From: Lingula anatina
Lineage: Eukaryota; Animalia; Brachiopoda
Assembly: GCA_051362555.1 (NCBI GenBank)
Contig: CM120640.1
Location: 12,462,001-12,526,000, forward strand
DNA length: 64,000 bases
Direction: 5' to 3'
The notes beneath the pieces were generated by a model that saw nothing but the letters and a program-made list of their open reading frames with translations, did not search any database and was not told the DNA's origin. This document shows positions 30,188-64,000 of the stretch, piece after piece. A program made the translations under genes and the position numbers. Within the stretch, counting starts at the first letter, position 1, and each line of letters opens with the position of its first letter.

Positions 30188-30357
30188 GTCCCGAGACAAG
30201 TTTACTACTTCAGCCCTTCCGCAAACCAAAGCGAATCCGGACAGCGTTTTCCCCGTCACAGCTTCTGCGACTTGAGCATGCTTTTGAAAAGAACCATTAC
30301 GTGGTGGGACAGGAGAGGAAAGAGCTGGCAGCTAGCCTAAATCTATCAGAAACACAG
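30188..30357 (+). CDS. Emx: Emx exon 2 (homeodomain helices 1-2)
   Basis: TTTTAG acceptor in phase 1; [48 protein letters not shown] is diagnostic of Emx; donor CAG|GTAAGT in phase 0. Confidence 0.97.
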
Positions 30358-34634: not shown

Positions 34635-35012
34635 GTCAAAGTGTGGTTCCAGAACAGGCGCACAAAGTACAAACGTATGAAGGCGGAAGAAGGTGACACC
34701 GCCCCGTCTCCAGGCAAACCCCCTGGTGCTTCGGACGACGAAGATGAAGAGGAGGAAGAAGAGGAGGAGGAAGAGGACGGTGATGAGGAACATATTCTCC
34801 ATCAACAACAATTACAACAGCTACAGCAGCACCAGCAACGCACACTGGAACACAAAGCTAAAGCTAACCATGACACTCATAAAGACTTTAATGCCAAAAG
34901 ACCGAGCACAGACGACGATCGGCCGTCATCTCCCACCAAAAAACAAAAGATTTCACATGAACACCATCTGAATAAATGGAAAGCTGAGACGAATCAACTG
35001 AAAACTGTATGA
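34635..35012 (+). CDS. Emx: Emx exon 3 (helix 3 and C-terminus)
   Basis: TTTTTTTCCTCTAG acceptor; VKVWFQNRRTKYKR, acidic run, poly-Q/H, HHLNKWK motif, TGA. The joined CDS is 984 nt (327 aa). Confidence 0.96.
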   Translation, partial: VKVWFQNRRTKYKRMKAEEGDTAPSPGKPPGASDDEDEEEEEEEEEEDGDEEHILHQQQLQQLQQHQQRTLEHKAKANHDTHKDFNAKRPSTDDDRPSSPTKKQKISHEHHLNKWKAETNQLKTV

Positions 35013-44015: not shown

Positions 44016-44306
44016 CTGTATTTGAGACACCAAATCTGTAATCACAATGCATACTTATCAGTAAAGGCGCAACATTACCACAAAACCTAGTAAATGTTTG
44101 TTGTGTTTGCGCGTTTGGGAGGTTGGGGGGGGGGTAAATTTGGTCCCTCTTTTTCCAACTTAAATCGTTTCATATTTCCATAAGCTTGTTGACAGATGAG
44201 TATTTGTACTTGAGAAATACTGCGTTTTTCATATATGTGCATGCGTTCGTGCGTGTATTTTATATAACACATATATGGTCTTAACTATAAGCTTGTTTCA
44301 ACTTAC

Positions 44307-45626: not shown

Positions 45627-47798
45627 CACACCTTTCACTTGACGAATACAACAATATCACATTGGTTTCAACAATAAGAAAGGTGTTATTGAAGACAGTG
45701 GTCTTTTTTTTCCAACTGATAGATGAGATTCAAAGTAGTGCGGCCCATTACCATAAGAATATCGTCTAAGGTGCAAAAGGGTGTTAACGAAATGTTAAAA
45801 CTAAGGAATCAGATTTTTCTAGACGAAACATATAAAATTCAATAAATTAAAGGGTAATCTATTAATTGGTTAATTGTCCAAAAACGAAAAACCAAAAAAA
45901 AAAAAACTTATCTTCTATCAAACTACATAAAAATCAACAGCGTTTAAAATTATGGATTTCTTAAAAATTAAAAGCAAGGAAAATGCATTTAGAAACCAGT
46001 ACATGCTTACAAAGTAGACTAAAGGAAATTGCCTAAAAATTTAACCCTAGTCCTCAGAGAGGAGCAGAAAAGACAGAGGTTTACCTCTGTTGTTGCCACA
46101 ACATGATATTTTAGTCTGCTTTGGCCCAGGAGACACTTTTTACCCTGTAGAGCCAACTGGGAATGAGTTAGAGCAATAAAAACGGGTTTAAAGCAAGCTC
46201 CATGAACTTATATTACCTACATATGCAACGTCATTATTTTGCAAATATAATGCCAGACGGCCCACAATTTGACAAAAAACGCATCTGACGTGAGGGGCAA
46301 GTTGGCAGACTAAAATTAAATGCAATTAGTATCCCATGTAAACCCCATGAAATACATTTTCACACATTTTTTTTTTTGTTAAATTGATTTTTAAAGTCTT
46401 TGCTGAATAAGTAGTTCAAAGGCAAATATATTAAGGTTTCTGTACGTTACATACATATGTGTTGCAAGAACCCAAATATCTGTGCATCATATTTTTATTT
46501 AAGAATAATTTAATAATGGTATAAAGTAGGCTTATAATGAATGATAAAGAATAATAAACTTCCATTAAAAACTGACAGTTTCAATCCTCAACTGATATTA
46601 CTTAAAATAAACCAATGACTTTGCGTTAACAACGGTCTATAGCTGTGTTGCGCGCAAAGGATTGTGGTCTATATGAGGGTCCAATTTGCTCCGAGTTAAA
46701 GGGGCCAACTAGCCCCAGGTGCACATTTTTATTTTAAAGGGTTGCAGCCATTTTTGGTGCTAGAATGAACTACGATGATGCATTTCTGTGAAACTTTAGT
46801 TTGATGCTCTGTACATATACTATATTCGATCACAACCTTATTTAAAAATCTATTTCATAAATTTACTTTTAGATGCAGAAATCTTTCATTTGGATTCACC
46901 GATAAAACCTTTATATGACCGACACTTTCTGAGCATTATTGGATACGATCCCTTTACAAAATGTGATCATTTTTTACCTCGTACATGCAGTTACCTTTTC
47001 GTTGAGAGGCCAACTTACCCCGGGGTCCAAATATAGCCCAGGTTTCCCAACATCTACCTGAGAACCTATGGAATTTAGTTTAGTTTTATTCTCTTATTGT
47101 GACGCAATTTTTACTGTATTCAGGTACTTCTTAGGACATTCTGAGAACGGTGCATCTCATTTTTTGAACCGTCAGTTTATACTTAGTTTTTTTTTGCGGG
47201 TGAACTGACACAGCTACTGGCTTCTCTACTCATATTGTGGGATAAAGGATATAAGATATTGGATTATAAGATTTTTCGGTAATTTCTAGACGTCGCTCTC
47301 TCACCTAGATAATCCCAATTAACGCAGGATTTCGTAGAATCGTATTAATCAAGCAAGTCATCGACTGCATGCTTTATTATCACATCTGCCAATAATGTAA
47401 ATGTTATTTCCTTTAATTGGAAATCACGTAACAGACCCCTTTGAGACACTGTTTAAAGTTGATAGATAAGATGGTTTTAACTACAGCAATTCCACAAGTC
47501 CTGTCTTTAAAATGTGATTCCATATCTGGACACTTCTTGTCCTTAGTCGAAAATCTACAAACAATCACCTACTCATGTTGGTCCTCTATTAACACAAATT
47601 GAGAGAAACGCATTACCACATCCTATTCATTGGTTTATTCACATGTGCCCTGAAGAAGAATATTTTACAAGATATGCCAGACAAGTGCAGAACATCAGAT
47701 AACTTTTGTTGTTTGCACACATCTAACTTATTTTTGCTACATTACATTCTCTCTCACACACACATACACGCGCGCACGCGCGTGCGCCAACACACATA

Positions 47799-47857
<59 letters not shown>
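47799..47857. repeat. (AAT)n microsatellite
   Basis: About 19-20 AAT units. Confidence 0.95.
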
Positions 47858-47859
<2 letters not shown>

Positions 47860-48064
47860 TAAGGACGTGAGCCTACGCACATACGGCCAATAGTGAAAAC
47901 TTAAAGCAAAATTGTTTCATTATCGATTTACCTCAGATGTCATGGCTTTGCTTATCCATATAATCGTAAATATCCATAGAATCTATAAACTGCTTTGGTT
48001 TACTATATATCTGTTTTGTTGAAAAACGAAATTTTCGGTTTCCAGACTACGGTCGTCGTGCAGA

Positions 48065-48080
48065 TTTGTGACGTCACAAA
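48065..48080. promoter_or_regulatory. CRE/ATF 16-bp palindrome TTTGTGACGTCACAAA
   Basis: Perfect palindrome in the CpG-containing region upstream of the TF-like gene. Confidence 0.4.
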
Positions 48081-50107
48081 CTTCGTGAGACATGCACAAC
48101 AGTCTAACGTAACGTCAATAAGAGAATAAATAACGATTGAATTATGAAAGGACGACTAAGAAAAGATGCATATTTCCATAAATCAAATAAAAAGGTGTAA
48201 GAAGAATTCTACAATACCTCATGATTTTCAAGCAATGCTTTTCAAGAGTCATTATTAGATAGCTTGTTTAAATCATATAATCATTTTCAATCACAAATCT
48301 CTTTTTGTTTTGACGCAAAAAAAATTAATCAGTCTCATGATTAGAGGAAGCTGATTTTGCACAAATATTTTGCCCGAGAGCTTTCATTAAAAATTTAACC
48401 ATGATCAGGTCTGTAACACAATGCCTATATTTCATTTACAACGCTCACTGAGTACACCTACATGTAGTTACAGTTGGGACGGATGGCCCGGCCGGGGAGA
48501 CGTCAATCCTGGACCTATATTCGAGAAAATCGTCATTTTTTCAATTATGGGTTATTTAGAAATAATAATTATTATTATTATGTTTTGATCAATGTTGGTA
48601 ATAATTTTATGATTTGCTAGTAAGTCATTCCATTTTGAACTTTTCTGATTTAAGTATAAATTGCATATTTGATTATTTTTGAATAGTTTTAAAAACTTCA
48701 TGTTACGACAGGCCTATTGTTCAGTTTTCCTTTTCAACATTAAGAAGTGCTACAGTCATTTCTGGTCCTTATTTCCCCAGTTCTAAGTACTTTTAATTGA
48801 ATGTGCTTCTTTCTAAAGAACAACAACTTATGCAGGAAGTGGCTCTACAACAACTTGGAAAATCAACTCGTGTTGTTTAGGTGGCTTGTCTTGGTTCTTT
48901 GTTTAGCATCGAAAGCTAGTATTTTGGTTGGTGTCCTACAGCTTTCGTATATTTTCCAAATTCCTTTGTTCTCTCTTAGCTTTTATATGGTTTAAGTGCA
49001 GCATTCACCAGTAATATAAAACGTCATTTTACAGGTAAGAGTTTCTTTTTCATTATGCACTGGAAGACGAGTGCTGAGTCTGTTTGTTTGTGAATTTTCT
49101 GGCATGTATCCTGTCCGCATTTAAAAATGTCCCCAAGTCGTACAGTATTTTCTGTGTCTATACATATCCCCCGAAGCTACTTATCATTCCCAATTTAGAC
49201 CTTTTAAAACGCAGAAACCCCTCAAATGAAAATACCCAATGTCGATATTTTGGTATTTCTGCACCCTATAAGTCTTTGATTTTCAATTTCAGTGTTTCTA
49301 ATTTCTAAATTACTCTGTATATTCTGTGGTGAATTAGAGCAATGTCTCCGCCATTTAAATAAAATAGTTTCGCAATTCATATACTAATTTTTTCAAAAAG
49401 CTTTTGTCAAAAACTTCATGCCCATTCAAATATTATGAGAGCTTCTAAAGGCTATTGCAAGGATGAATATTTGCTGTAATCCCATTATTCAGATAGCACT
49501 AAACGTTATTGTAAAAATATCAGAAAATTAGTAAGCATATTCTTATATTAATTCCAGTATTATGGGAATTATTTGCAAATAAATTTTTAATTAAAATGGT
49601 AGAAAACATGAAAATCCATGTGCAAGAACAAGTCAAGTACTGAATTGTGAAAAGGATAATTTTTTGTTTGTTTGTTTGTTAGGGGAAAGTTCAATTTTGC
49701 AAAAAAATCCAGAACATATACCTTTGATGTATACATTTATGAACAGTAGGGCAGTTTCTTAAAGTAAACAGTATTTTCCTCAGCTCTGTGCTACTAATAA
49801 TTTGGAAATATTGAAAAGTCCTTTGTCCACACTCTGCCATCACTTCAGGGACTGATTTCTGGATTGCTTGCATTTCAAAACTGTATCAAGATGGTTGACA
49901 GATGGCAAGCTTTGTCAGATGGTGAAAAATGAGATTGTTTTTGGCAACATAAATTTATGTCATTTAGAAATTAAAAATGATAAAAAAGTATTACCAAGAA
50001 TGAGTCCCTTATCTCTTATGCTTTAACCTCTTACCAGTTGCTTTCATAGCACATGCCCAAACTACAATACACATTTTTATTTAAGATTGGGAAAGAGTGG
50101 CATCAGA

Positions 50108-50216
50108 ATGTTGAAGATCTCTAGATTTGATCTAAAGTTGCCTGCAGAGCTTGTCCAGACTTGTGCTGCTCTGCGAGAAAGAGAGCTTGCCAAGTTTATA
50201 GCAACCAATAATGAAG
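50108..50216 (+). CDS. Multi-isoform TF-like gene, shared coding exon 1
   Basis: MLKISRFDLKLPAELVQTCAALRERELAKFIATNNE; donor AAG|GTAAAT in phase 1, matching the next exon. A probable 5'UTR donor CAG|GTAAGA lies at 49034/49035. Confidence 0.75.
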
Positions 50217-50572
50217 GTAAATAATTTAGTAAGCTTATTTTTATTTTTATTATTATTCCAAACTACTTCTACTAAAAACCTTTGCAGTTATCAATTTTTG
50301 TAAATGCTTTTAAGTTCAAGGATGTCTTTTATTACTGAAAAAATTTCATTATAAGTAGTTTAACGCCAAACAAAGTTTTTTTAATGGACCATAGGTTAAT
50401 TGGTTGAAAATTTTGACATCATTGCCTGTTGAAACTGTTCCTCTTCTTTCTTTTCTCTTTGGAGTATCTGGACAAAATTTCATACAAGAATGAAGTTTTT
50501 GTGTAATGACATTTCTTCATAATAAGTTGTTTTTTATAATGCTTATATCAAGCTATGATAATGTTGTTTCAG

Positions 50573-51297
50573 GTGAATTCCAGCATACCATAGAAGTGAA
50601 GAGTGAAAAGGAGCACTTTGTTAACTTTGAACTATCCAATTTGGAGATAACATTTAAAGATGGCAGATTTGTGGCCCAGATTGCCCAGGTTCTTAAAGTC
50701 TTTCAGGCGCCAGAACAGGAATCTCAGCAGCAACAGCCTGCACCATCACAACAACAGCCGAGTAATGTTGGAACAGTAACCTCACGTGGTAGTTTTGAAA
50801 AACAATCGCCAAATGTCACTCATTCAAATGAGAGACTTGTGACTCCAACATCTGGTCCAGATGCCGTGAACTTGTTCAGAAACACACAGTATAGAAATTC
50901 AAAGGAAATCTCAGCATCTCAAAATGTTTCTCAGACTACCAGCGTGCAACCAAGACAGCTGCCAAATACAGGTGTCAACTCAAACACAGCTGAAGAAGAG
51001 GATGATGACATAATTGTAGTGAAAGATGAAGATATGATATCAAGGAGGTCGAAAAATGTAGCTGAAGTCACAATTGAGCCCTCTGTTGCAGGAGAGCCCA
51101 GCTCCTCTCAGCCTTCGCAGATATACCCTTATAGCTTATCACAAGTGCATTTGAATGCACCATCCACCATCACAAGTATGTCAAACACAGAACAGTTAGT
51201 TCAACCTTCAACTTCTCAAGTGGGTTCTAACGTGCCACCTCCCCCAACCACACCAGGGCAAATGTTTCTTCACAGAAAGATGGCAAGGATGCAGCAG
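50573..51297 (+). CDS. Multi-isoform TF-like gene, shared coding exon 2 (end of N-terminal domain plus Q/S/P-rich linker)
   Basis: TTTCAG acceptor in phase 1; long open frame (ORF 50506-51333); strong phase-0 donor CAG|GTAAGA. Confidence 0.85.
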
Positions 51298-51332
51298 GTA
51301 AGAGTTATCATTTGTATTTTAGTTATATTTTG

Positions 51333-51358
51333 ACAGGGTTCGACATAAAACTTTTGAT
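51333..51358 (+). promoter_or_regulatory. Stem I, 5' arm (long-range intronic RNA pairing with 52961-52987)
   Basis: ACAGGGTTCGACATAAAACTTTTGAT pairs at all 26 positions (3 G:U, one bulge on the partner) with GTCAAAAGTTTTGATGTCGAGCCTTGT. Confidence 0.75.
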
Positions 51359-52033
51359 TGTTCATTGAGTGAGAATATATTTCATAATAGTAAATGATGA
51401 TATTTCAGGAATATTTGAAGTTATAAAGGAATAATGTGGTAAATGGAAAAGGTGTACATGAACGAGTTGGCCTTTCTTCCACACTATAAGGTGCCAAGTT
51501 AGTCATTCAAACCTGTTACTGTGTAGTTGTAATTTAATTATACAAACAAATTGTTATCCACTACAAGAGCTTGGTAGTGACTCTTTTAAGAGAGATTGAC
51601 TGCTTAAGGTAGAAGATTTTGTCACTGGGGTTTGTTCTTAGCATCCTTTAATGCTGACAATATATGGGCCTAGGCCATAGTTCAGCTCAAGACAAAATCT
51701 TTTTATGAGAGAGTCTCACAGAAATCATCCCCCTTGTGCCTTGCTTCTCCCCGGGCTTTGGATTATGATATTTGACAGTTGTTTCTTCAGAGATAAGACA
51801 TGCTTGAAGTTCTACAGAATTATTCTGAAGCTAGAAATAATAAGTACATATTTACTAGTATATGGCCAACATTTTATTTTTAAAATGGTGTCATTAAAAA
51901 AAAGAAATTTTAAATCTGGCAAAATTAGGATATTAACTGTTGATATACATAACACTAAGATTGTTAACTTAAATGAAAGATCAAAAACTCAGCTCTCATT
52001 ATGAGTAAATTTGCCACTTCACTTCTTTAACAG

Positions 52034-52531
52034 GTACATCATAGTCCTGTCAGGCCTTTAGATTATGCACGAGCAGAGAAGGTTAAGCAGTTGAAAGCCA
52101 AGATTTTAGAAAAGAAAGTCAAACATCATTCAGATATGATGCTAGGTCAGAAGTTCGCCCCCAGGACACTGCAGGGTAGTTCAGCTGGAAGCCCAAGACC
52201 TCTGGTCAATCCTCTTGACCATCTCACTACCAAACACAAGCGCAATTTGAGGTCTTTGTTAACTTATGGGTTACAAGAGCTTAGCGCCTCTTGTGTGGCA
52301 CAGAGACATCTTATGCCACCTATGCAAACACCTGGCTGCAAAAACAAGTACAAGACTGAGTCGGCAGTTGAATATCTGATGAAGGTGTCTGAGCTGGGAT
52401 TTGGTACTGTAGAGACGAGAGGGCGGGTCAAAGTTTTCAAGAAACGTCCCTTTGATGAGCTTAGTCAAAGCAGCAAAGAACTACTTGCTAGAATATTTGT
52501 GGAAGAATCTGCCTATAAGAAAACAAATTGA
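52034..52531 (+). CDS. Alternative terminal exon A: non-zinc-finger module, putative winged-helix-like domain
   Basis: TTTAACAG acceptor in phase 0, open to TGA. The segment ESAVEYLMKVSELGFGTVETRGRVKVFKK has a helix-G-x-G-hairpin pattern; the fold assignment is inference. Confidence 0.75.
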   Translation, partial: VHHSPVRPLDYARAEKVKQLKAKILEKKVKHHSDMMLGQKFAPRTLQGSSAGSPRPLVNPLDHLTTKHKRNLRSLLTYGLQELSASCVAQRHLMPPMQTPGCKNKYKTESAVEYLMKVSELGFGTVETRGRVKVFKKRPFDELSQSSKELLARIFVEESAYKKTN

Positions 52532-52960
52532 CTGATATGAAGGGAAGGGCTTTCTTCTGTATAGTGTTAAGCACATTATAGAATAGGCTAGACACTTTTT
52601 TTAGTGGGATTTATCTCATTTATTGGAAAGACTGAATACCTTTAATTTTAAAAAAAACTTTATATTTTTTAAATAATGATTTTTAAAACTAAATGTTAAA
52701 ACATATTATTTTTTGTTTTTCCCATAAAGTTTTATATTTCTATTTGCTTTTTTAGTAAAAATTGAGCAATGGTTAGGGGTATACGCATACAACTGAATGT
52801 TAAATAATGATTTTATATTCAAGTAATTCATTTCTTGTTGAGCAAAAGAAGACATCCAAAATGAAATTGCTGTTCAGATACTTTTGGGAGACAAAAAGAA
52901 AAAGGTGGACAAAGTAAAACAGTGTAAAAATTTTGTCATTGCCATCTGTAAAAACTGACT

Positions 52961-52987
52961 GTCAAAAGTTTTGATGTCGAGCCTTGT
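52961..52987 (+). promoter_or_regulatory. Stem I, 3' arm
   Basis: Complementary to 51333-51358; lies downstream of terminal exon A. Confidence 0.75.
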
Positions 52988-53470
52988 ATTAGTATGCTTA
53001 TAGTATAGTAAGGTATACAACATTGTTAATTTGTTAAATGTTAGTCTTGTTGTACATCACATAAAGGGATAGCAACTGTTCATTTTGGCCAATTTTCCCA
53101 TGCTTACCAATGGTTAATGAATCCATTTCTACATTCAAAGTTAGTCAATGTTTTTTTTTTCTAAAAAGTTTGTTTTTTTAGCCATCTATGGAGGTCAAGT
53201 GGTCAGATGGCAAGCACAGATTTCAGGTTTATTGCTAAAACTGCCATTTTTGTGGTAAAATAGAATATGTTATATTTCTATGAGTTGTTTACGATGTGTT
53301 TATTTTGAAATATAGATTTCATACGAGGAGTTGTTATCCCTTTATGTTAATATACTAGTATCTCAAGGGGGACAATTTTATTAAATTATTATTTTTTAGT
53401 ATATTACCACTAATATACTTACAACTGTATTATATAATGTTTAATATATATTCTATAGTCAGTTCCTTTG

Positions 53471-53497
53471 TTTGCTTTCTTATTCTCACCAGTGTTG
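53471..53497 (+). promoter_or_regulatory. Putative RNA docking site TTTGCTTTCTTATTCTCACCAGTGTTG
   Basis: Its reverse complement CAACACTGGTGAGAATAAGAAAGCAAA is closely matched once upstream of each of ZF modules 2, 3, 4 and 5. Confidence 0.8.
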
Positions 53498-53695
53498 AGT
53501 CCTCCAAAATTTTTGACTGAAAAATGAAAACAGCCTTTCACAGACTGGCCAAGAAGGAAATCCATAGTATTGTGCATACATACATATTTATGACAAAAAA
53601 TGACATGCTTGTGGTAAAAATGGTTTAAGCCTGCATATTTTGTATGGGGGCAAATCTGTTATGACATAGAGCCTTTTCTGTTTTATTTTTTAAAG

Positions 53696-54238
53696 AAAGG
53701 AAGAAACTTAGTTATTTCACCAAGGAGAGTGACAAATACATTGTCAAAACTACAGCGTGTGACGCCAAGTGTTGCAGCAGAGAAAGGAAGGAGTAAATAC
53801 CAGTGTGGCACGTGTGGTAGAACATTTCTACACAGTTTGTCTCTGACAGCTCACCAAAAAGAACATTTGTGTGACAAGGGTAGTTCCAGGCAAGTCCAGT
53901 GCAAGGTGTGCAATCAAAGTTTTACATCTGGAAAAGGACTGACTAAACACTTGAACTTGTACCACAAGGATAGTTTATGCTGTAATGCTTGCAATGCCAC
54001 CTTTACCACACAGGTTAGCTTGCAACGGCATATGCGAGTTGCTCATAAATCTAAAATGTATTCGTGTGAGATCTGCAACAAGAGCTTTGGCTACAAGATT
54101 TCGTTACATAGGCATTTTGAGGCAAAGCATAATTCAAATCCGGCATACATGTGCTCCTTTTGCAACAAATCATTTGCCTCTCCATACATGGTTAAAGCTC
54201 ATATCAAAAGTTTACACAAACTGGATCAGCAGACTTAA
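53696..54238 (+). CDS. Alternative terminal exon ZF1 (5 C2H2 fingers)
   Basis: Polypyrimidine tract and TTTAAAG acceptor in phase 0 (KGRNLVISPRR...); five CxxC...HxxxH/HxxxxH motifs; own stop codon. Confidence 0.88.
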   Translation, partial: KGRNLVISPRRVTNTLSKLQRVTPSVAAEKGRSKYQCGTCGRTFLHSLSLTAHQKEHLCDKGSSRQVQCKVCNQSFTSGKGLTKHLNLYHKDSLCCNACNATFTTQVSLQRHMRVAHKSKMYSCEICNKSFGYKISLHRHFEAKHNSNPAYMCSFCNKSFASPYMVKAHIKSLHKLDQQT

Positions 54239-54414
54239 AATGTGTATCTGGAAAAAGGAGGAACACTGATCATTAATGAAAATATTTATCCATGTAATTA
54301 ATCTGTACACGGTTATTTAACATTCCATTTTATGTTAGGTTTTATAACTCGACAAGATTTGCAAAGAGTTCAATGAAAAAATGAGGGGAGTTTTTCTACA
54401 GGTTAGTGTTCTGG

Positions 54415-54443
54415 CAACCACTCGTGAGAATAAGCAAGGAAAT
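54415..54443 (+). promoter_or_regulatory. Selector 2 (complementary to the docking site)
   Basis: CAACCACTCGTGAGAATAAGCAAGGAAAT, with an exact GTGAGAATAAG core, about 230 nt before the ZF2 acceptor. Confidence 0.7.
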
Positions 54444-54674
54444 GGAGCAAAGCAGTTAACTGAGAAAATTTTAAAACACCTTAAAGAGAGGTGAATGACA
54501 ATGAAACACATCCCTTACTAAAGGAAATATATTTTCATAACATTTTATTTTGTTATATGGGATACTAATGACAAACATGGCATGACATCAGGAACCCGAT
54601 GGGGCAGCTGAATGTGAAGGTTTAAGTCAAGTTGTGAATATTTTGACAAGCACTTTTGCTTTCTTTTCTTCAAG

Positions 54675-55073
54675 AGAACTGTCAGTCACCCCCTGATGAG
54701 GTCCAGGAAGAAACATCTACAGAGAGAAACAAAATCTTCCTGTCAGTACTGTGATATGTCATTTTCAAGTAGTTTTGCACTGAGGGCACACTTACGAGTT
54801 CATAAAGGGAATTTATATGAGTGTCTCCTGTGTAACAAACAGTTTGTGTATAAACAGTCCTTGCTTAGGCATGTAGAACGCAATCACCAAAGCAACCAGG
54901 AATGTGTTTGTTGTATCTGTGGGAATGTGCTGTCTTCTCCAGATGTGATAAAGGATCACATAGAAACAGTCCACAGAAAAGAGGCTGTCAGATGTAATGT
55001 CTGCCAAGTATACTTCACCAGATCAACTTTGAGGATTCATATGGCCATGCAGCACAAAGAATTTTCATCATGA
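54675..55073 (+). CDS. Alternative terminal exon ZF2 (4 C2H2 fingers)
   Basis: TTTTCTTCAAG acceptor in phase 0 (RTVSHPLMRSRKKH...); four fingers; stop codon; ATTAAA at 55080. Confidence 0.88.
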   Translation, partial: RTVSHPLMRSRKKHLQRETKSSCQYCDMSFSSSFALRAHLRVHKGNLYECLLCNKQFVYKQSLLRHVERNHQSNQECVCCICGNVLSSPDVIKDHIETVHRKEAVRCNVCQVYFTRSTLRIHMAMQHKEFSS

Positions 55074-55475
55074 TTTCACATTAAATGCTTAAATGTAAAT
55101 GGTGCATGAGGGTTGAGGTACCAACATGGAACCTTCGAAAATCATGGCCCTATATTTCTTGCTGCTATTTTCTAATGATAGTTGATGTTGTTGACAGTAT
55201 ATTGCAGTATGTACCTGAAACAAAAATATATTTACATATTACAAGGTAAGACTTAGAAAAGACATATTACAAGATATCTACTGCTACATTTTGGCAGTGA
55301 GGAACTTAATGTGGTGGAGTGGGCAGCATACAAAGATTTAGTAACTTTTATCTACAGTTTTTTAAGCGTAACTTTGTAATGTAAATAGCTATCAGTGTAG
55401 ATGAACTTTTATCAGCCTGTAGAAAAATTTATATATGTGTTAAAAAAATTCCTCCATGTGGCAAGGTTTCCAAAT

Positions 55476-55503
55476 GACACTGGTGAGAAGATGAAAGAAA
55501 ACA
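55476..55503 (+). promoter_or_regulatory. Selector 3
   Basis: GACACTGGTGAGAAGATGAAAGAAAACA is 24/28 identical to the reverse complement of 53469-53496, about 250 nt before the ZF3 acceptor. Confidence 0.78.
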
Positions 55504-55749
55504 GTAAATTAATTTATACAAAATCTTTAAATGAAAAGAAAGTTGTATAGTTTGTGTGTATTAGTTAGCTATATAAAAAAACTGGAAAAGTAATTATCAT
55601 TTCTGAACCAGAAAAATTATTTAAATATATCAAAATGCTCTGGATAGCCAGTTTATAAAATTTGTATAATTATACTCAATGCGGAATCTCCATTATTTTG
55701 CTGGTAGCTTTCTAACACATGAAGACATATTTATTATTCCCTTAACAAG

Positions 55750-56307
55750 GGCAAACATACCCACCCAAAGTTGAGAAGCCCATGGCCTGGAGATTCGCCA
55801 GCACGCATGAGACTTCATGGGATGCACTTTTGTCTGGTGTGTGGAAAGGGGTTCCAAAGTGACATCTTGTTACAGCGTCACAAGAAGATACACAGTGCTG
55901 GAAAGGATTTTGTCTGCACCATCTGCAACAAGGCATTTGTGTACAAGCTATCACTGCAAAGACACACTGACGCCTGTCATAACAGTAACCCTGCGTACAC
56001 ATGCACCATATGCAAAGCTGTCAAATACAGCAAGTGCAACATGCGCCGTCACATTGAAGGAGTCCATAAAATGAAGGCTATCCAATGCCAAGGTTGTCAT
56101 GGCTATTTCACTGAAGATGGATTGAGGGATCATAAATGTAGTGGTGATAAAAATGATAGAAAAAGTTTAACAGGAAACTTGATGGCAGAGAGAGCTGATC
56201 ATTTGACAGGTGAAGGCTTAGTGACTCCAGACGTGATTCATGGCCCTATTATTGTAGACATATCACAGGCCCCTGTGAATGAAAATGTAGATTTACCAAG
56301 TCCTTAG
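55750..56307 (+). CDS. Alternative terminal exon ZF3 (3 C2H2 fingers plus 1 C2HC-like finger)
   Basis: TTCCCTTAACAAG acceptor in phase 0 (GKHTHPKLRSP...); fingers are paralogous to those of ZF1/2/4; own stop codon. Confidence 0.88.
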   Translation, partial: GKHTHPKLRSPWPGDSPARMRLHGMHFCLVCGKGFQSDILLQRHKKIHSAGKDFVCTICNKAFVYKLSLQRHTDACHNSNPAYTCTICKAVKYSKCNMRRHIEGVHKMKAIQCQGCHGYFTEDGLRDHKCSGDKNDRKSLTGNLMAERADHLTGEGLVTPDVIHGPIIVDISQAPVNENVDLPSP

Positions 56308-56723
56308 ACAGAAGAGTCACTTGCTCAACCAATTACTAGATTTGGAGGAATATTGGTAGGCCATAATATAACTGTTCTTTGGGCATTCTCACTTCCTGCC
56401 ATTTTGACAAGAAATAACCCTTTGTGACTAAACATGATAGCTATAAATACAAGTTTAATTAATAACATGCATAGGCCACTTGCCTTCGAATAACTAAATT
56501 TCATGTTAGGGGAGAAAAAATAATTACCTTGAGCTTCAGATTCTCACAATCTTGTCACATGAAAGAGAATTGGCCTGCTTGGAATTTAGACCAGCCCTTT
56601 TTCCTGTATGACAAGAATTTCAGAACAAGGGTTTGTAAAACTGCCTCCAACAATTGAAACCTTGAATTTTTCTAATTTTGTATGTTTTTCTGATAATAAT
56701 TGCAATTGGCAAAGTGATGCATT

Positions 56724-56750
56724 AACACTGGTGAGAATGAATGCAGAAAA
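56724..56750 (+). promoter_or_regulatory. Selector 4
   Basis: AACACTGGTGAGAAT is a 15/15 complement of the docking site, followed by GAATGCAGAAAA; about 125 nt before the ZF4 acceptor. Confidence 0.78.
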
Positions 56751-56873
56751 AAAATCAATTTTCTTTTAAAAGCATGTTTACTTCATATTTTATTACATTA
56801 AAAATAAAAAAGATAAATATTTGTGGAATGGAGCCTTTTTTCTTTCAATCAATTTTCTACATTATTTCATAAG

Positions 56874-57293
56874 GAAAAGAAGAAATTCGCCTTACAGAAA
56901 TATCCTACTGGCAAGAAAACCAGTTTTACCATGTCTTATCTTGGCATGCAATACTCGTGCAAATCCTGTGGAAAGATCTTCCAAAAGCACACTTCTCTGC
57001 TAGAACATATGAAAATACACAAAGGCAAACTACCCACTTGTGACATTTGTAACAAATCTTTTGTGTATAAACAGTCCTTGGAGAGACACATACAAGCATA
57101 CCACAAGAGCAATCCTGCCTATCTGTGCTCCATTTGTGGCACTCTGAAGTTCAGTAAAACTTCTAATCTACGGAGACACATTGAGGCTGTCCATAAGATA
57201 ACACCTATACGATGTGATATCTGTCATGGATACTATACTGAAAGTAGCAAGGTGGAACATGATCTGATACACCTGAAGTTGTTGCAACAGTGA
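56874..57293 (+). CDS. Alternative terminal exon ZF4 (4 C2H2 fingers)
   Basis: TTATTTCATAAG acceptor in phase 0 (EKKKFALQKYP...); four fingers; own stop codon. Confidence 0.88.
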   Translation, partial: EKKKFALQKYPTGKKTSFTMSYLGMQYSCKSCGKIFQKHTSLLEHMKIHKGKLPTCDICNKSFVYKQSLERHIQAYHKSNPAYLCSICGTLKFSKTSNLRRHIEAVHKITPIRCDICHGYYTESSKVEHDLIHLKLLQQ

Positions 57294-57756
57294 AAAAGTG
57301 GATTGCAATTATTGGATATATTAAATGTTGTTTGTTATGTAAATTATATTTATTTACTAGTTTCATCAATAAGGAATTTCATGTCATCCTCCGCCCCCTG
57401 TCCCTACCCAAACCTGTCATGGAGTTATGTTTGTGGGTCTGCTCATGTTAGAAAATTTATATTGTAGTTTTATGGCATCACCATATCTTACAGTTCTGCT
57501 TAGGCTTGGTTAATTCTTATATATTTTGTAGCAAAGAAACATAAATATAAAAGTTCACCAAAACACTTACATGGAATACTTGAAATAAAAGTAAATCTTG
57601 TGTAATATAATAAAAGCATGGACAACATGATACAAGCATGTACAGCAGCTGTTTCTGGTGTGCACAATACTGAACATGGGGAAACATCAGTCTTCGCATG
57701 CTATTTATGTAGAACAAAATTCCATAAGAATGATCAAATTTAAGTTTTATTGAAAT

Positions 57757-57784
57757 ACATTAGGTGAGAATGTGAAAGCAAATA
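57757..57784 (+). promoter_or_regulatory. Selector 5
   Basis: ACATTAGGTGAGAATGTGAAAGCAAATA pairs with the docking site using G:U wobbles, one bulge and one mismatch; about 480 nt before the ZF5a acceptor. Confidence 0.75.
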
Positions 57785-58265
57785 CCTCAATATTTTATCA
57801 TGTATTATGTAGATAGTAGGTTGGTAGATTTTTACACTCTATTTAGATTGTGTATACAGCTCTTACAATGATTATTATAGAAATAAAAATACAATATAAT
57901 CTGAAATTAGACATGTTTTGATTTGCAAACTAAATATCTTGTCACATTATTGGTCTCAAACAAATATTTTCCTTTTGTTTCACAGCTATTCATATATTAA
58001 CAGCTTAAAGCTTTTTACAGGCTCTCATTTTGTTTGATTAGTTTATTCTAAATAGACTTCAACAAAAGTATCCTCTATTTATGATAAATTGCTTATTTTG
58101 ACAGGCCTAAAATATGATTGTCTCTAACAGCTCCATCTGCCAGTTAATCTTTTATTAGAATTGAGGGAAGAAAAGGCATTACTTTCACACGGTAATGCTT
58201 TTTTGTCTGAAATATAATACGTTTGAGAGAAATTTGAAATTTATGTTGTGTAATATTTCCTAAAG

Positions 58266-58321
58266 GGACATCGAGGCCAGCCAACCCAGTTATGGCGTTC
58301 ACAGACTTCAGGCAATGGAAT
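58266..58321 (+). CDS. Alternative terminal module ZF5, exon a (56 nt)
   Basis: TTTCCTAAAG acceptor in phase 0; GHRGQPTQLWRSQTSGNG; GTAAGT donor in phase 2, exactly matching the phase of exon b. Confidence 0.72.
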
Positions 58322-58503
58322 GTAAGTACTCAAAATTGCATAAAGATGACAAAAACAGCTTTAGAAATTAGTTCATGACTTAAGCATTGGCAGTTTATTA
58401 CTTGTTTTAACTGACATTTGGTTAGCTTGATTAGCAGATTCTGTTGTTGTAAAAATCAAAATACAGTCTACAAAATGGTTTGAATTTGACTTGTCATGTT
58501 TAG

Positions 58504-59134
58504 GACCTCTGGGACCAGGAGATATATTGCTGAAAAACATGCATTGCCAAATGTCTCCAATGTTGCTGCTGTAAAGGAAAGCAGAGGATTGCCTTACAAA
58601 ATGGGTCAAAAACCTGTTACCGAGAATACTCTGTCAGGGGTCAATAGGAGTCAGTTTTTGTGCACCAAATGTGGTCAAAGTTACAAGACGGTGAAAGATC
58701 TACAGCAACACCAAGCGCAGTGCACACAGTTGTGGTCCCCGAGTTCAAAGAAAAATTTCAACTGCAATGTTTGTGGGAAACAATTTCCAGGAATGCAGAA
58801 CTTGAGACAACATCTTTTGAAGCATAAAACTCCCAAGTGTATTTGTCAGCTGTGTGGCAGGGCTTTCAAATGGAAAGGGTCACTTAAAAGACATATGCAC
58901 ACATGTCAAAGAGCACAAAAAGTGCCAGGATTTGTCCCAGTTATTAGAACATTTTCACTATCAGACCCTTCAAACACGACTGTTTCTGGATTGGAAACTT
59001 CAAATGTAACACTTTCAAGGCCCACACCTTTGGGATTACCAAGACCAGGGGTTAAAAGTTCAGATCTGACTGAAGAGAAGTCTGCCAACACTGCAGACCA
59101 CTCAGTCAATCCTAATCCTTGTTATTTAACATGA
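58504..59134 (+). CDS. Alternative terminal module ZF5, exon b (3 fingers: C2HC, C2H2, C2HC)
   Basis: GTTTAG acceptor in phase 2; FLCTKC..HQAQC, FNCNVC..HLLKH, CQLC..HMHTC; S/T-rich tail; stop codon. Confidence 0.85.
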
Positions 59135-60163
59135 ATTGACCCAACTTACCCTTACCAAATGGATATTGCAGAAAAAAATCTCGAAAGATTACTTTGTGGC
59201 TCTAAAATTGAGCCAATAGCCTTGAAGAATTTTTGAATTAATGTTTGTGAATAGAAACTAGTCCTTGTATTTGTTGTGGCATGGATGGGATGCCTCTCTG
59301 TATTGTAAAGATGAATTTCCATTTGTTTTCTCCAAATATTCTATCAACTCTCCAGTGATCATCCCATTTTATCTAAAATGTTAATTTATTTTTCTTATTA
59401 TTATAAGTTTAATTTCATCATACAATTTTACACATTTATACTAGCATGCATTTCTTAATGGCTTAAGTGATGTATATTATAGCTACAACAAAACAACACT
59501 AATGAAAGATATACAAAATAATTTTTATTGACATTTTGTAAACTTTGTATTCAGTTTACAGAATTTGCTCCAGCGTTTAAACTCCTTAATAAGAAGTTAT
59601 TATGTGAAATTATACAATACAACAAAAGTACATATCATTTGTTAAAGCTTGGATATTGCTGAATTTCATAAGCTTTTCAATCTAGAAAAATAAAACAAAA
59701 CACTTGATTTTGCCATTAAGAATTACATTTAGAAAAGCATCTCATTGTCAATTTATAGACAGTTTAAGTATACTCATAAAGATGGAGAAATGAATGTTTA
59801 GTATCATTGTTTCCAATTATGCTACCTTGCATACAATACCAGAAATGTCTGGAAACACTAGCCAATTTGTTCAACATCGACATTTTCCAAAATCATCACA
59901 GTGGCTGTGTGTAACACACAGATCCATTCTCTGTATATTCACAGCAGGGAGGCCAAACCATGTACTTCACATGTTCTAAGCATTCTTGACAATCAACTTC
60001 CTGGTTTTGGGAGCATTTCTATTGTGAATGATAGAAAAACCATAATATTTGTTGATTTTGCTTTAACCCTGGTAATACAATCACTATTGTTGTTTCCCAG
60101 TTCTCTGATCTCTGTTTACAATTTAAATAGTTTCATTTTCCATAGATATTATGAACAATAGAT

Positions 60164-60308
60164 TTAACATTGTAGTCTTTCTAGTTTTGCCTGGACCCCT
60201 TTGAATTCTGCAATAAGAGTCCTCACTGTGGTGTCTCCCCCAACAATGGACTGTAACTCAACCAGGTAGGCCGCCACATTGTCCAGGCAGGTGGTGGTGA
60301 AGGCACGC
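60164..60308 (-). CDS. NUP155: Nucleoporin Nup155, last exon
   Basis: RAFTTTCLDNVAAYLVELQSIVGGDTTVRTLIAEFKGVQAKLERLQC* matches the Nup155 C-terminus. Confidence 0.9.
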
Positions 60309-60630
60309 CTGAAGAAATAAAAATGAATAAAAACTACAACAGAATGTCTTATTATTCAACAAAGAACAAAACATACCTACCTTGAAAACTGCCCTTTTCA
60401 TCTAACTATGACTCAATGATTTTTGCTTGATCAGATTAAAATTCACCTCGTGTGCAATATTTTAGCCATGTTTGTGAATGTGGATGGAATCTGAAAATAT
60501 TACTACACGTGACTGAAAAATGTCACCTGAATGGACTGAAAGTTTGTATTTACAGAAATTTGTAGTCTATATTTTGTCTCAAGTGCAATGCACAGTCCAG
60601 GGTGGAGGAAAACATCCACGCTTCTCTTAC

Positions 60631-60737
60631 CTCTCATATGCTGGCACAGTGTTTGGTGCATCTGTATAGCTTTCCACCAGGCATCGTAGCACAGTCAACA
60701 GATGCAGTGGTTTCCTCATGGCCTGCCAGTAGGGGTC
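60631..60737 (-). CDS. NUP155: Nup155 exon
   Basis: DPYWQAMRKPLHLLTVLRCLVESYTDAPNTVPAYER; GT-AG boundaries with consistent phases. Confidence 0.9.
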
Positions 60738-61010
60738 CTTAAAAGGTCAATGAAATTAATTTCTGTATCAAAGCTCTATCTCTAGAGGAAGTCATATAAC
60801 AAGAAGAATTCCAGAAACTTAAAGGATTAGTATATATAAGATTTGATCATATGAAAAACATCATTTACCTCACAATAACACATGAAGTTTGTAAGATTTG
60901 AATGCATTTCATAAATCAAATGCTAACCTGGTAATATATATATATACATAATATCTCAATAACTGCAGCATTTTACAGAGTACAGTGTGGAAATCTGTTT
61001 TATATCTTAC

Positions 61011-61147
61011 TTTTGACTTGAAGAGTCGGTCATAAACCTCTTGCAGCTTTGGCATGGACACACCTATCTGCTGTAAGGTGGTAAACACCCACTTGGAGTC
61101 AAAGCTATACTCGCAGCTCTTCTTCTCCAAATATTTCACCAGGAAAG
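61011..61147 (-). CDS. NUP155: Nup155 exon
   Basis: FLVKYLEKKSCEYSFDSKWVFTTLQQIGVSMPKLQEVYDRLFKSK; canonical splice sites. Confidence 0.9.
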
Positions 61148-61342
61148 CTGTACAAAAAAACAATTACAGAAAAAGTTTACTGCCACTTTCAAAAGGAGGA
61201 TTCTTCAAAAATGTCTTAATTTTATTACACTGCTTCGTCAATTTAATTATTATTATTATTATTATTATTAAACCACAATCAAAATGTCAAAATAAACATT
61301 GTGGACATGAATATAGCAGCAATATGTTATAAACAGCCATAC

Positions 61343-61453
61343 CTAATGGAAAGTATCTTTCTGTTGCACCATACAACTTTCCAAGTATCACCAATTTCTT
61401 GCTTATAGTGGCCATGCGTGTCTGAGGCGCAGACGCCAGACTGTGTTCAAATT
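61343..61453 (-). CDS. NUP155: Nup155 exon
   Basis: ...ISKKLVILGKLYGATERYFPL; canonical splice sites. Confidence 0.88.
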
Positions 61454-61633
61454 CTGAAAAAAAAAAAAAAAGTATATGAATGTAGGTAACTCTAATACCA
61501 AATCAGGTTTCTTAATATTTTTCACTATCTCACAATTTCTCGATTAAAAAAGAAAATGGACTTGACATAACATTCAACACACCCACTTCAATTTAATTAA
61601 GGAGATACGTCCTGTCCTATTGTATAACTCTAC

Positions 61634-61754
61634 CTTTATCCACAATGTCCTGCCACAGGGACTCCACCAGTGTTGGGTCATAATGTCCAGCACAATGGAC
61701 AATGGCTAGCTTACACTCAGCCAGACCATATGGCTCTGCAAACTCTCCATAAAG
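61634..61754 (-). CDS. NUP155: Nup155 exon
   Basis: [40 protein letters not shown], a highly conserved Nup155 segment. Confidence 0.93.
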
Positions 61755-61951
61755 CTGGAATAGAAAACAACAGTATTGTTATTGGCTGGGGTTAAAAGGA
61801 ATTAAATATTTTTAATTTGTCAATGAAAAAAAAATGAATCACTACTTTTTGTAAATGGCATCAGACCAAGTTAGAAAAACCCCACTAAAGAAAACAGTAA
61901 CTGTATTGGGCTAGAAGTTATATGCTGCACATATCTGGAGACCATACTCAC

Positions 61952-62189
61952 TGTTGTAATGTCCATGAGTTCAGAGTTCAGCCTGGAGACGCTGTCCTCA
62001 GTGTGATGTGATGGCAACTTGGAAACCATCTCCAACACCTGCAGTTGTATCCTGGCCACCTCCATCTTCTCTTCAAGCTCATGCAAAAACTCGCCCTCAT
62101 TTGCAGAGCTGGTGCGCATGCTGGAGCTCTTAGCACACATGATTGCACGTGACAAGTATTCCAGTCTCTGTGGGAGAGGAATGTCCGTC
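61952..62189 (-). CDS. NUP155: Nup155 exon (gene continues beyond the window end)
   Basis: [15 protein letters not shown]...[19 protein letters not shown]...LNSELMDIT is diagnostic of Nup155. Confidence 0.93.
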
Positions 62190-62310
62190 CTGCAATATAA
62201 AAATGGTGGTTTACGTATAATGGATTTTGTTTTGGTTCTGCTGCTTCAATTTAGTCCAAGAAATTGGTGCAGAAAAAAGGGTGAATTGTGCGTTTTTTAT
62301 CTACAAGCAT

Positions 62311-62872
62311 GAAATTTGCCACAGTTGTAGATAATGAAATTCTAAGCTTTTTTGGATATATGGGCATGTCTGAATATTCCAGTATGTCCTCCAAATCCAA
62401 TATGGCCGCCACAAATACTCTTTTAAATTAAAACATCTAATATATAGTCCTAAAATGGTTTAAAATATCATTTTATAGCTGGAAAATATCATGCTATGAA
62501 TGAATTATCAATATCCGCTTCTACAGGTGTATAGAATTCCAAAATGGCCTCCAAAAGTAAAATAAGCAGTTTAATTACGCAAAATATGCAGCAGTTTTGT
62601 AAAATCATCAAGCACTTACAATTACAAGCATAAAAATTGGCACAGTTATGTAGAACATGATTCTAAGCAACGTTGGATATAGGGGCATGTCTGAAAATTC
62701 CAATATGGCAGCCAATTTCAATATTGCCCCCAAAATACCCTTTCAAGGTGAAAGTTATTTGTATAGTCTTTTATAAAAATATCATTTAATGGTTAGAAAA
62801 TACCATTGTATGTATGAAGTATCAGTATCTGCCACTTAAGGTTTTAAAATTCCAAAATGGCCTCCAAAAGTC
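62311..62872. repeat. Two degenerate ~250-bp copies spaced ~320 bp apart, probably transposon/satellite-derived, in a Nup155 intron
   Basis: Shared blocks TTCTAAGC..TTGGATATA.GGGCATGTCTGAA.ATTCCA, AAAATATCATTT and AATTCCAAAATGGCCTCCAAAAGT occur in both 62311-62560 and 62631-62872. Confidence 0.7.
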
Positions 62873-64000
62873 AGCAGACCACAACTATTGAATTGTAATC
62901 ACTCGTGAATAGGCATGTGGGCTTTGCAAACTACCTGTATAATCAGCATATTCCTACCTGTGCAGGAGCTATTCTACAGAGTTTTTAAAAAACCATCAAG
63001 CATGATACATTTATTATGTACTGAAAACAGTCCTTCTTTTGATAAACCAACATAAGTAGTTTGACTCTTTGCTCTGGATTCTCATTTAGATCAATTCCCA
63101 ATCTTCTTATATGGCACTCATGAGTGACTCCCCCTTTCTAAGAAAAAAAGTATCGTGCAAAATCCATAAAATATGAAAGAAACACCAGAATTACTTAGCC
63201 TTAAAGAGGCAAATATAAAAAACTTCGGGTGTACCAATTTTGTCTGTTGGTTATGATTCTTCAGCTAGATCAGTGCATGGCGCTTCATCAAATGCTCATA
63301 AATATAACAAAAATGACAGCTAATCAAACATACAGGTCTCACAATTTGGTGTTTTTCATTGGTAAAGTACTAAAAAGCGGGGCACATTTGCACTCGATAA
63401 TGTTATGATGTTATCGTGTGCTTCAAAAGTAAATTAGAAAAGCTTCTTATATAAAAAATTGGCTTTAGTACATTCGCAGTAATGGCTACCGAGAATTTAG
63501 TGGAAATTTATGAGCAAAGAAATACCTGTACCCCGTACCCCAAACAGAGGGCAGGTGTTGATACGTGTTGTATCCAAGAGTTGCATTGCAGGCTTCACAC
63601 TTCGTGCACTAAAAAAGAAGCACTGATAGGCGCCAAACTTTGGTTTTCATTTGATCATTTGGCAACTTGTTTAGTTACAAACCTATACTTTCAAAAAACT
63701 GAACATGAAAATAAAAGAATTAAAATCCTCCAGACTGTTAATACATACAAAACTTCAAAAAACGGTGTATTCTGAGCATTACACCAAGAAATTAGTGCAA
63801 TATGGACTTTGAAAGGTAAAAATTCATGAGATTTCCAGCATCATTGTCTCTGTGGGACAATCCAGAATGAAGCCATGAGGAGTATTCACTTACCCAGCTA
63901 ACAAAATCTACCAGGTAGCTCCTACCACATCTGTTTGTAGTTATGTGTGCAGTTGCTATGAGGGGAGTCAGAAGCATTGGAAGAATGGTCCTATAAGGGT

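What the first reader, a model, noticed from the sequence alone, without database searches (positions are those of the whole stretch)
50108..59134. One gene, six interchangeable C-termini: a lola/mod(mdg4)-like modular transcription factor with a non-BTB N-terminus
Seen in sequence: the five zinc-finger ORFs lack convincing own starts. Each module begins after a polypyrimidine tract plus AG (53696, 54675, 55750, 56874, 58266), as does exon A (52034). All six entry points are phase 0, matching the single donor at 51297, and each module ends in its own stop, so they cannot be chained. ZF5 enters through a 56-nt phase-0/2 exon that fixes its frame. Established: Drosophila lola, fruitless, broad and mod(mdg4) join a constant BTB N-terminus to mutually exclusive zinc-finger 3' exons. 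Inference: this is an independent version of that design, with a different constant domain, and automated annotation would probably split it into several small ZNF genes.
Basis: partly seen in the sequence, partly recalled or inferred. Interest (0 to 1): 0.92.

Follow-up and report, generated by a model that had tools for sequence, protein, structure and literature searches.

The report
Brachiopod gene with RNA-switched DNA-binding ends
A lamp-shell (Lingula) gene joins one shared front half to alternative final exons (four of six joins seen in RNA reads, the other two in database gene models), five of them zinc-finger modules that likely bind DNA, and its introns carry complementary stretches predicted to base-pair and pick which ending is used, a design known from insects but built here on an unrelated protein domain.

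Summary
The gene is from Lingula anatina. RNA reads join donor 51297 to acceptors 52034, 53696, 54675 and 56874 (4 of 6). RefSeq already models the locus as one gene; 5 isoforms were retrieved, including the two joins not seen in reads.

New beyond the finding:
(1) The 83-residue non-BTB head defines a family of about five Lingula genes, all with swappable tails. One has isoforms numbered to X36. No named homologue was found outside Lingula.
(2) Exon A is a domain 58% identical to the tail of DUF3987 proteins.
(3) There are candidate RNA switches. An intronic docking site (53466-53498) has its four best partners in the 64-kb window one before each of ZF2-ZF5. A second 29-bp helix loops out exon A.

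Likely logic: no pairing gives A, helix I gives ZF1, helix I plus selector n gives ZFn. This is untested by mutation or conservation, and the head domain's fold is unresolved. Verdict: new variant of known designs (lola/mod(mdg4) layout, PGRP-LC/Pip pairing).

The parts
48971..49034 (+). 5' non-coding exon (3' end exact; start not mapped, taken from a depth bin)
   Evidence: joint 49034>50086, 14 and 15 reads; in-frame stop upstream of ATG 50108
50086..50216 (+). constant exon 2, ATG at 50108; first 36 aa of the head domain
50573..51297 (+). constant exon 3: rest of the 83-aa head domain plus low-complexity linker; common donor at 51297
   Evidence: RefSeq isoforms share a 278-aa prefix
51333..51362 (+). 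candidate docking site I, 36 nt after the common donor
   Evidence: 29-bp duplex with 52957-52987, -38.0 kcal/mol, best of 7984 windows, next -25.1
52034..52531 (+). terminal exon A (165 aa; isoform 443 aa); aa 70-163 resemble the C-terminal domain of DUF3987 proteins
   Evidence: 13 junction reads; 58% identity over 95 aa
52957..52987 (+). candidate selector I, downstream of exon A's stop; pairing with dock I would loop out exon A
53466..53498 (+). candidate docking site II, about 200 nt before the ZF1 acceptor
53696..54238 (+). terminal exon ZF1 (180 aa, 5 finger motifs; isoform 458 aa = RefSeq X3)
   Evidence: 21 junction reads
54414..54448 (+). candidate selector S2 (core 251 nt before the ZF2 acceptor)
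   Evidence: -32.0 kcal/mol with dock II; 1 of 100 shuffles reach it
54675..55073 (+). terminal exon ZF2 (132 aa, 4 finger motifs; isoform 410 aa = X6)
   Evidence: 4 junction reads
55475..55505 (+). candidate selector S3 (core 267 nt before ZF3)
   Evidence: -34.4 kcal/mol; 0 of 100 shuffles
55750..56307 (+). terminal exon ZF3 (185 aa, 3 finger motifs; isoform 463 aa = X2)
   Evidence: RefSeq model; read depth but no listed junction
56721..56752 (+). candidate selector S4 (core 143 nt before ZF4)
   Evidence: -33.6 kcal/mol; 0 of 100 shuffles
56874..57293 (+). terminal exon ZF4 (139 aa, 4 finger motifs; isoform 417 aa = X5)
   Evidence: 9 junction reads in 3 runs
57756..57785 (+). candidate selector S5 (core 502 nt before the ZF5 entry exon)
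   Evidence: -33.1 kcal/mol; 0 of 100 shuffles
58266..58321 (+). 56-nt entry exon of the ZF5 module
   Evidence: matches RefSeq X1; no listed junction reads
58504..59134 (+). terminal exon ZF5 (3 finger motifs; isoform 506 aa = X1)
50436..50483 (+). intron-2 stretch complementary to 52861-52911 (exon A 3' UTR); not explained by the model
   Evidence: -44.9 kcal/mol, 44 bp; 0 of 300 shuffles

Best explanation
This Lingula gene splices one constant front (an 83-aa non-BTB head plus a linker) to alternative terminal exons, four joins seen in reads and two in RefSeq models, giving six proteins that likely act as transcription factors with different DNA targets, and the choice of ending is predicted to be steered by two tiers of competing RNA base-pairing. 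SHOWN: exon structure, phases, stops, four junctions, C2H2 content, the paralogue family, and complementarity far above chance. INFERRED: with no pairing the nearest acceptor (exon A) is used. Helix I (51333-51362 with 52957-52987) loops out exon A and brings the donor near ZF1. Docking site II then pairs with one of four mutually exclusive selectors, loops out ZF1 and the modules between, and delivers the donor to ZF2, 3, 4 or 5. Each selector lies behind the previous module's stop, so it would be transcribed before cleavage there. Also inferred, by analogy with BTB: the head is a protein-interaction or oligomerisation module that gives all isoforms the same partners. ZF1-ZF4 probably arose by tandem exon duplication, and exon A by capture of a DUF3987 C-terminal domain.
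For: Junction reads and stranded depth on the + strand. RefSeq isoforms match. Dock II: its top four partners among 12,775 windows of the whole window are S3, S4, S5 and S2, one per inter-exon interval. An unbiased scan of 237 upstream 35-mers ranks it first (worst-of-four -30.6, against best -24.3 and mean -15.4 of the other 230). Shuffles reach the observed energy in 1, 0, 0 and 0 of 100, while the control intervals before exon A and after ZF5 show nothing (26 and 93 of 100). The pattern search gives 5 matches against 0.11 expected, one of them unrelated at 34030. Selector cores are 50-73% alike while their 50-nt flanks are 26-48%. 19 dock positions pair with all four selectors, three of them through a G-U variant. 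Partition function: dock II-S2 25.4 expected bp; once S3 is present, S3 takes it (24.2 against 0.0); helix I 27.7 of 29 bp. Helix I: 0 of 13 energy shuffles and 0 of 300 alignment shuffles. ZF1-ZF4 are 39-57% identical. Precedent: PMC6191721.
Against: No orthologous DNA was available, so there is no conservation or covariation test, and no mutation data. In the longer piece 51298-53700 the minimum-energy fold does not contain helix I; forcing it costs 6.3 kcal/mol. In the all-pairs test of 36 interval pairs, strong complementarity also appears where the model needs none: intron 2 with the exon A 3' UTR (0 of 300), pre-ZF4 with pre-ZF5 (5 of 300), and for pre-ZF1 with pre-ZF2 the best match is 52969-53014 with 54542-54593, not dock II-S2. 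Dock II reads like a 3' splice site (pyrimidine tract plus CAG) and the selectors like 5' splice sites (GTGAG), so part of the complementarity could come from those signals. A fifth partner at 55304-55336 (-30.5) has no place in the model. The dock II controls were run after the site was picked. Two of six joints were not seen in reads. The head has no family match, and its function rests on analogy only. DNA binding was not tested.
Confidence: 0.68

Rival explanations
1. Same modular gene, but the ending is chosen by ordinary competition among splice sites and poly(A) sites. The complementary stretches are by-products: an inverted copy of a duplicated motif, or pseudo splice signals that bind U1 or proteins.
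For: PMC6191721 section 17 says scanning and splice-site strength can explain 3' exon choice without pairing. Selectors contain GTGAG and dock II ends in pyrimidines plus CAG. Some strong duplexes have no role in the model.
Against: One dock has four partners, each placed 143-502 nt before a different acceptor, with the core retained against diverged flanks and G-U-tolerant changes. ZF5 is only 30-39% like the other fingers yet has a selector.
Confidence: 0.2
2. As in Drosophila mod(mdg4) and lola, the joins are made in trans between a constant-exon RNA and separately transcribed 3' exon RNAs, with the pairings acting between molecules.
For: Precedent in PMC4387717 (passages). Short reads cannot tell cis from trans.
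Against: All modules are collinear on one strand within 8 kb. No strong pseudo-donor (GGTAAG, GTAAGT, GGTGAGT) lies in the last common intron. No pile-up of 5' ends at the ZF exons was listed, though coverage is low.
Confidence: 0.08
3. Only one or two isoforms matter; the other endings are splicing noise on decaying duplicates.
For: Junction counts are low (4-21 reads), and two joints were not listed.
Against: All six frames are intact, and the five that could be compared are intact in the RefSeq allele too, with 0-3 changes per tail. The same layout recurs in about five paralogues, one with 22 retrieved isoforms.
Confidence: 0.04

Closest known systems
Drosophila lola and mod(mdg4) (Tramtrack-group BTB genes; PMC11426971 passages, PMC4387717 passages)
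   Same: Constant N-terminal exons joined to one of many terminal exons that encode DNA-binding modules; a gene family sharing one head; 20 to 30 or more isoforms at the largest loci (here a paralogue numbered to X36).
   Different: No BTB domain; the host is a brachiopod, whereas TTK-type BTB is arthropod-specific per that paper; trans-splicing is not shown here.
Competing RNA pairings at 3' variable regions of Drosophila PGRP-LC, CG42235 and Pip (PMC6191721: abstract, passages, sections 12 and 17)
   Same: One docking site complementary to selectors upstream of alternative 3' cassettes.
   Different: Those were validated by compensatory mutation; this is computation only. Here there appear to be two tiers in series, in a transcription-factor gene outside arthropods.
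RefSeq models XP_013406008.1, XP_013406010.1, XP_013406011.1, XP_013406013.1, XP_013406014.1 (Lingula anatina)
   Same: Same gene and same joins.
   Different: Automatic, mutually inconsistent names (ZNF652-B, ZBTB49, XlCGF48.2, Cf2). No note of the shared head family or of RNA elements in the names shown. X4, expected to be exon A, was not retrieved.
C-terminal domain of DUF3987 proteins (Lineus longissimus LOC135503395 and an unnamed ENA protein)
   Same: 56-58% identity over about 95 aa with exon A.
   Different: Exon A lacks the DUF3987 domain itself. The domain's function is unknown; a winged-helix reading is my recall and was not confirmed.

Membership tests
lola/mod(mdg4) Tramtrack-group BTB genes | N-terminal BTB domain | tested here: not met
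   No Pfam family at E up to 10 for 9 head sequences; only zinc-finger hits on full isoforms; 83 aa predicted mostly beta strand, in low-confidence models
lola/mod(mdg4) Tramtrack-group BTB genes | constant 5' exons joined to mutually exclusive terminal exons | tested here: met
   4 of 6 joints in reads; 5 RefSeq isoforms
lola/mod(mdg4) Tramtrack-group BTB genes | variable exons encode different DNA-binding-type domains | tested here: met
   zf-C2H2 above cut-off in ZF1-ZF5; paralogue tails include Myb/SANT, zf-C17orf113 and an HTH below cut-off. By sequence only.
lola/mod(mdg4) Tramtrack-group BTB genes | trans-splicing of the variable exons | not testable with these tools
   needs allele-phased long reads
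lola/mod(mdg4) Tramtrack-group BTB genes | head domain forms homo- and hetero-multimers | not testable with these tools
   needs biochemistry on the purified domain
docking-site/selector 3' variable regions (PGRP-LC, CG42235, Pip) | one docking site complementary to a selector upstream of each cassette | tested here: met
   for ZF2-ZF5; exon A and ZF1 have no dock II selector
docking-site/selector 3' variable regions (PGRP-LC, CG42235, Pip) | pairings are mutually exclusive | tested here: met
   19 dock positions are used by all four selectors; S3 displaces S2 in the ensemble. Predicted only.
docking-site/selector 3' variable regions (PGRP-LC, CG42235, Pip) | conservation or covariation across species | not testable with these tools
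   no genome held; the only related locus returned was a bacterial chance hit
docking-site/selector 3' variable regions (PGRP-LC, CG42235, Pip) | disruptive and compensatory mutations change and restore exon choice | not testable with these tools
   bench test
Sm/LSm fold (head domain) | sequence or structural match to Sm proteins | tested here: inconclusive
   all 6 PDB sequence hits are SmD3 but weak (E 0.14-0.49, 29 positions); models have pLDDT about 48

The most novel reading that the evidence does not exclude
Brachiopods independently built a lola/mod(mdg4)-scale transcription-factor system: an unnamed head domain (possibly an Sm-like oligomer) shared by about five genes, each drawing on a cassette of C2H2, Myb/SANT, HTH and captured DUF3987-type tails. 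At this locus the cassette is addressed by a hierarchical two-tier RNA switchboard, in which a first helix skips the non-finger exon and a second dock chooses among the finger exons. My literature searches found no such system described outside arthropods.
Probability: 0.4. Interest if true: 0.85.

Novelty: new variant of a known kind. Interest (0 to 1): 0.68.

Why it matters
If true, the layout of one head with many DNA-binding tails, and its control by docking-site RNA pairing, are not insect peculiarities: they arose again from unrelated parts in a lophotrochozoan. The locus is compact (8 kb, six endings, seven short elements), so one minigene could test how a nascent RNA skips several acceptors and poly(A) sites to reach a distal last exon. 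It also defines an unnamed zinc-finger-associated head domain, comparable in role to BTB, ZAD, SCAN or KRAB (names recalled). Gene-count surveys of brachiopod transcription factors would miss this diversity. Tempering this: the isoforms are already in RefSeq, both designs are known in Drosophila, and unchecked notes of this scan report similar BTB-less arrays in other genomes.

Tried and rejected
No whole genome is held, so paralogous loci could not be read at DNA level. The run search listed no indexed RNA holder; the 9 runs came by species label, and 8 of 9 were laid.

Head-domain fold: two AlphaFold2 models had mean pLDDT 47.8 and 48.6. VIA searches gave best Z 4.2 and 4.1, none at 5 or more. 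Foldseek gave no match at E 0.001. The Atlas gave no usable hit for the head or for exon A. NCBIfam gave two single-member hits at E 0.02-0.04, taken as chance. A phage tblastn of exon 2 found no match. The two-copy complex job returned no answer, score 0.00, alignment not used; it is not used as evidence. The Sm-like idea remains a lead only.

Four profile hits outside the family (P0048-P0051): three were viewed and are long repeat proteins, and the fourth was not viewed; all four were set aside. Locus L001 is a bacterial contig whose match lies antisense to another ORF; rejected. Exon A against the similar-looking tails of the LOC106157998 pair: probability 3.6%, not supported. No PDB sequence match for either. 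A BEN reading of the P0016 tail is recall, with no Pfam hit. Rfam found nothing at 47000-61000.

Dock arms as dispersed repeats: no strong further copies in the window for dock I, selector I or the intron-2 arm; the rest of the genome is untested. The heavy read pile at 53059-53347 comes from a repeat and is not expression. The partition function for 51298-53700 did not finish. Look-ups of earlier findings by sequence and by place returned nothing.
Full report
OBSERVATION. The constant coding part is 50108-50216 plus 50573-51297, 834 nt, phase 0. Acceptors 52034, 53696, 54675, 55750 and 56874 open 165, 180, 132, 185 and 139 aa in phase 0 only. 58266-58321 plus 58504-59134 gives the sixth module. 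ZF1-ZF5 carry C2H2 fingers above the Pfam cut-off; exon A and the constant exons have no Pfam match. Finger motifs by regular expression: 5, 4, 3, 4, 3.

RNA. Nine runs were listed by species label and eight were laid, each read in part (6-30%). One search lists GT-AG joints 49034>50086 (14 reads), 50216>50573 (13), 51297>52034 (13), 51297>53696 (8) and 51297>56874 (9), with one row hidden. One search lists 49034>50086 (15), 50216>50573 (30), 51297>53696 (13) and 51297>54675 (4). Joints to 55750 and 58266 were not listed. Stranded libraries place the RNA on the + strand across all modules. No listed joint links one module's coding exon to the next. One 2-read entry (56348>56873, six letters between) fits a cryptic donor at 56355 in the ZF3 3' UTR spliced to ZF4; this is my inference.

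IDENTITY. The best protein hits are Lingula anatina RefSeq isoforms of one locus. My joins reproduce X1 (506 aa), X2 (463), X3 (458), X5 (417) and X6 (410) in length, with 4-7 substitutions, so the window is another allele. X4 was not retrieved; the exon A isoform would be 443 aa, which fits between X3 and X5. RefSeq models are predictions, and I could not see their support.

FAMILY. The first 83 aa are 57-64% identical among paralogues. Forty-eight fetched proteins begin with this head, in six groups: this locus (5); LOC106170880 (22 retrieved, with tails after a 368-aa common prefix and isoform numbers up to X36); LOC106150702 (3) and LOC106157998 (6), near-identical and probably alleles; LOC106156073 (9, plus one partial); and the P0043/P0044 locus (2). 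That makes about five genes, all with alternative tails. Tails include C2H2, Myb/SANT, zf-C17orf113 and an HTH below cut-off. Linkers share a short [LM][FY][RKQ]N motif in all six groups and often a hydrophobic-K-x-E motif; reading the latter as a SUMO site is recall. A profile search of 1.84 billion representatives gave 15 hits: six named Lingula proteins, five unnamed family sequences and four set aside as unrelated. No named homologue lies outside Lingula, but a 5-sequence profile can miss remote relatives. The head is not BTB. Its fold is unresolved; the only lead is a weak SmD3 match (E 0.14). Exon A aa 70-163 is 58% identical to the C-terminal part of a DUF3987 protein of the nemertean Lineus, which suggests domain capture. 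ZF1-ZF4 are 39-57% alike, and ZF5 30-39%.

MECHANISM. A repeat scan showed one intronic arm complementary to several downstream stretches. Against 12,775 windows of the + strand, dock II (53465-53499 as queried) pairs best with 55466, 56716, 57746 and 54411 (-34.4 to -32.0 kcal/mol), one in each interval before ZF3, ZF4, ZF5 and ZF2. Next come 55301 (-30.5) and then -26.9. Scanning 237 upstream 35-mers without bias ranked the two windows on this site first. Shuffles reach the observed values in 1, 0, 0 and 0 of 100; two control intervals show nothing. The cores share GTGAGAA, and the flanks are mostly near background. Nineteen dock positions pair with all four selectors. The same scan found helix I: 51333-51362, just after the common donor, with 52957-52987, behind exon A. 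It has 29 bp and -38.0 kcal/mol against a next best of -25.1 among 7984 windows, and is reached by 0 of 13 and 0 of 300 shuffles. In ensembles of nascent-length pieces, helix I holds 27.7 of 29 bp and dock II-S2 25.4 bp; with S3 present, S3 wins. The geometry gives a simple inferred logic: none gives A; I gives ZF1; I plus II-Sn gives ZFn. Candidate poly(A) hexamers lie downstream of selector I, S4 and S5; none was found after S2 or S3.

AGAINST. There is no cross-species or mutational test. The minimum-energy fold of 51298-53700 omits helix I by 6.3 kcal/mol. Among 36 interval pairs, the five involving the model's intervals scored 0, 4, 0, 4 and 13 of 300, but the pre-ZF2 hit is a different duplex, and two pairs outside the model scored 0 and 5 of 300. 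The strongest of these, intron 2 (50436-50483) with 52861-52911 (-44.9 kcal/mol), crosses helix I and is unexplained. Dock II resembles a 3' splice site and the selectors resemble donors.

KNOWN SYSTEMS. It works like lola and mod(mdg4), with 20 and at least 30 isoforms (PMC11426971, passages). It is not a member, since BTB is absent. Their trans-splicing (PMC4387717, passages) is untested here. The pairing resembles PGRP-LC, CG42235 and Pip (PMC6191721: abstract, passages, sections 12 and 17). Ten literature searches (listings only, at most 20 rows each) showed no paper on this locus, head or family. The library lacks most subscription journals and I opened no supplements, where such a family could be listed. 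Unchecked notes of this scan describe BTB-less arrays in probable annelids and dock/selector sites in lola-like genes. I did not test them, and look-ups by sequence found no look-alike of this head. They lower the uniqueness of the design and are not used as support.

VERDICT. Gene architecture about 0.95; RNA-pairing control about 0.7; head as an oligomerisation module about 0.5, by analogy only. New variant of a known kind; interest 0.68.

Noticed in passing
window 50436-50483 with 52861-52911: A 44-bp predicted duplex between intron 2 and the exon A 3' UTR (-44.9 kcal/mol) crosses helix I. It could compete with helix I; no matching exon-skipping joint was listed.
   Followed up: partly
window 53059-53347: A repeat with 19-nt terminal inverted repeats (MITE-like, my label) sits between selector I and dock II. 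It draws many reads from other copies, which carry a roughly 32-nt near-palindromic insert at 53179.
   Followed up: partly
window 56349-56365: Possible cryptic donor in the ZF3 3' UTR spliced to the ZF4 acceptor in 2 reads of one run.
   Followed up: partly
window 43089-44054 (-): An uninterrupted 321-aa protein-kinase-like ORF, GC-richer than its surroundings. Possibly retro- or virus-derived; not examined.
   Followed up: no
window 27318-35012 (+): A three-exon homeobox gene (Pfam Homeodomain) that reads like Emx/empty spiracles (name recalled).
   Followed up: no
window about 59600-64000 (-): Exons of a nucleoporin (Pfam Nucleoporin_C; Nup155-like by recall). Its transcript converges on this gene's 3' end, with opposite-strand reads from about 59400-59600 onward.
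   Followed up: no
proteins P0012-P0014, P0032, P0033, P0036-P0038: LOC106150702 and LOC106157998 are near-identical and both contigs carry a thioredoxin-domain protein 15 model, so they are probably uncollapsed alleles. Several of their tails share an unnamed domain of about 90 aa.
   Followed up: partly
   Followed up: partly
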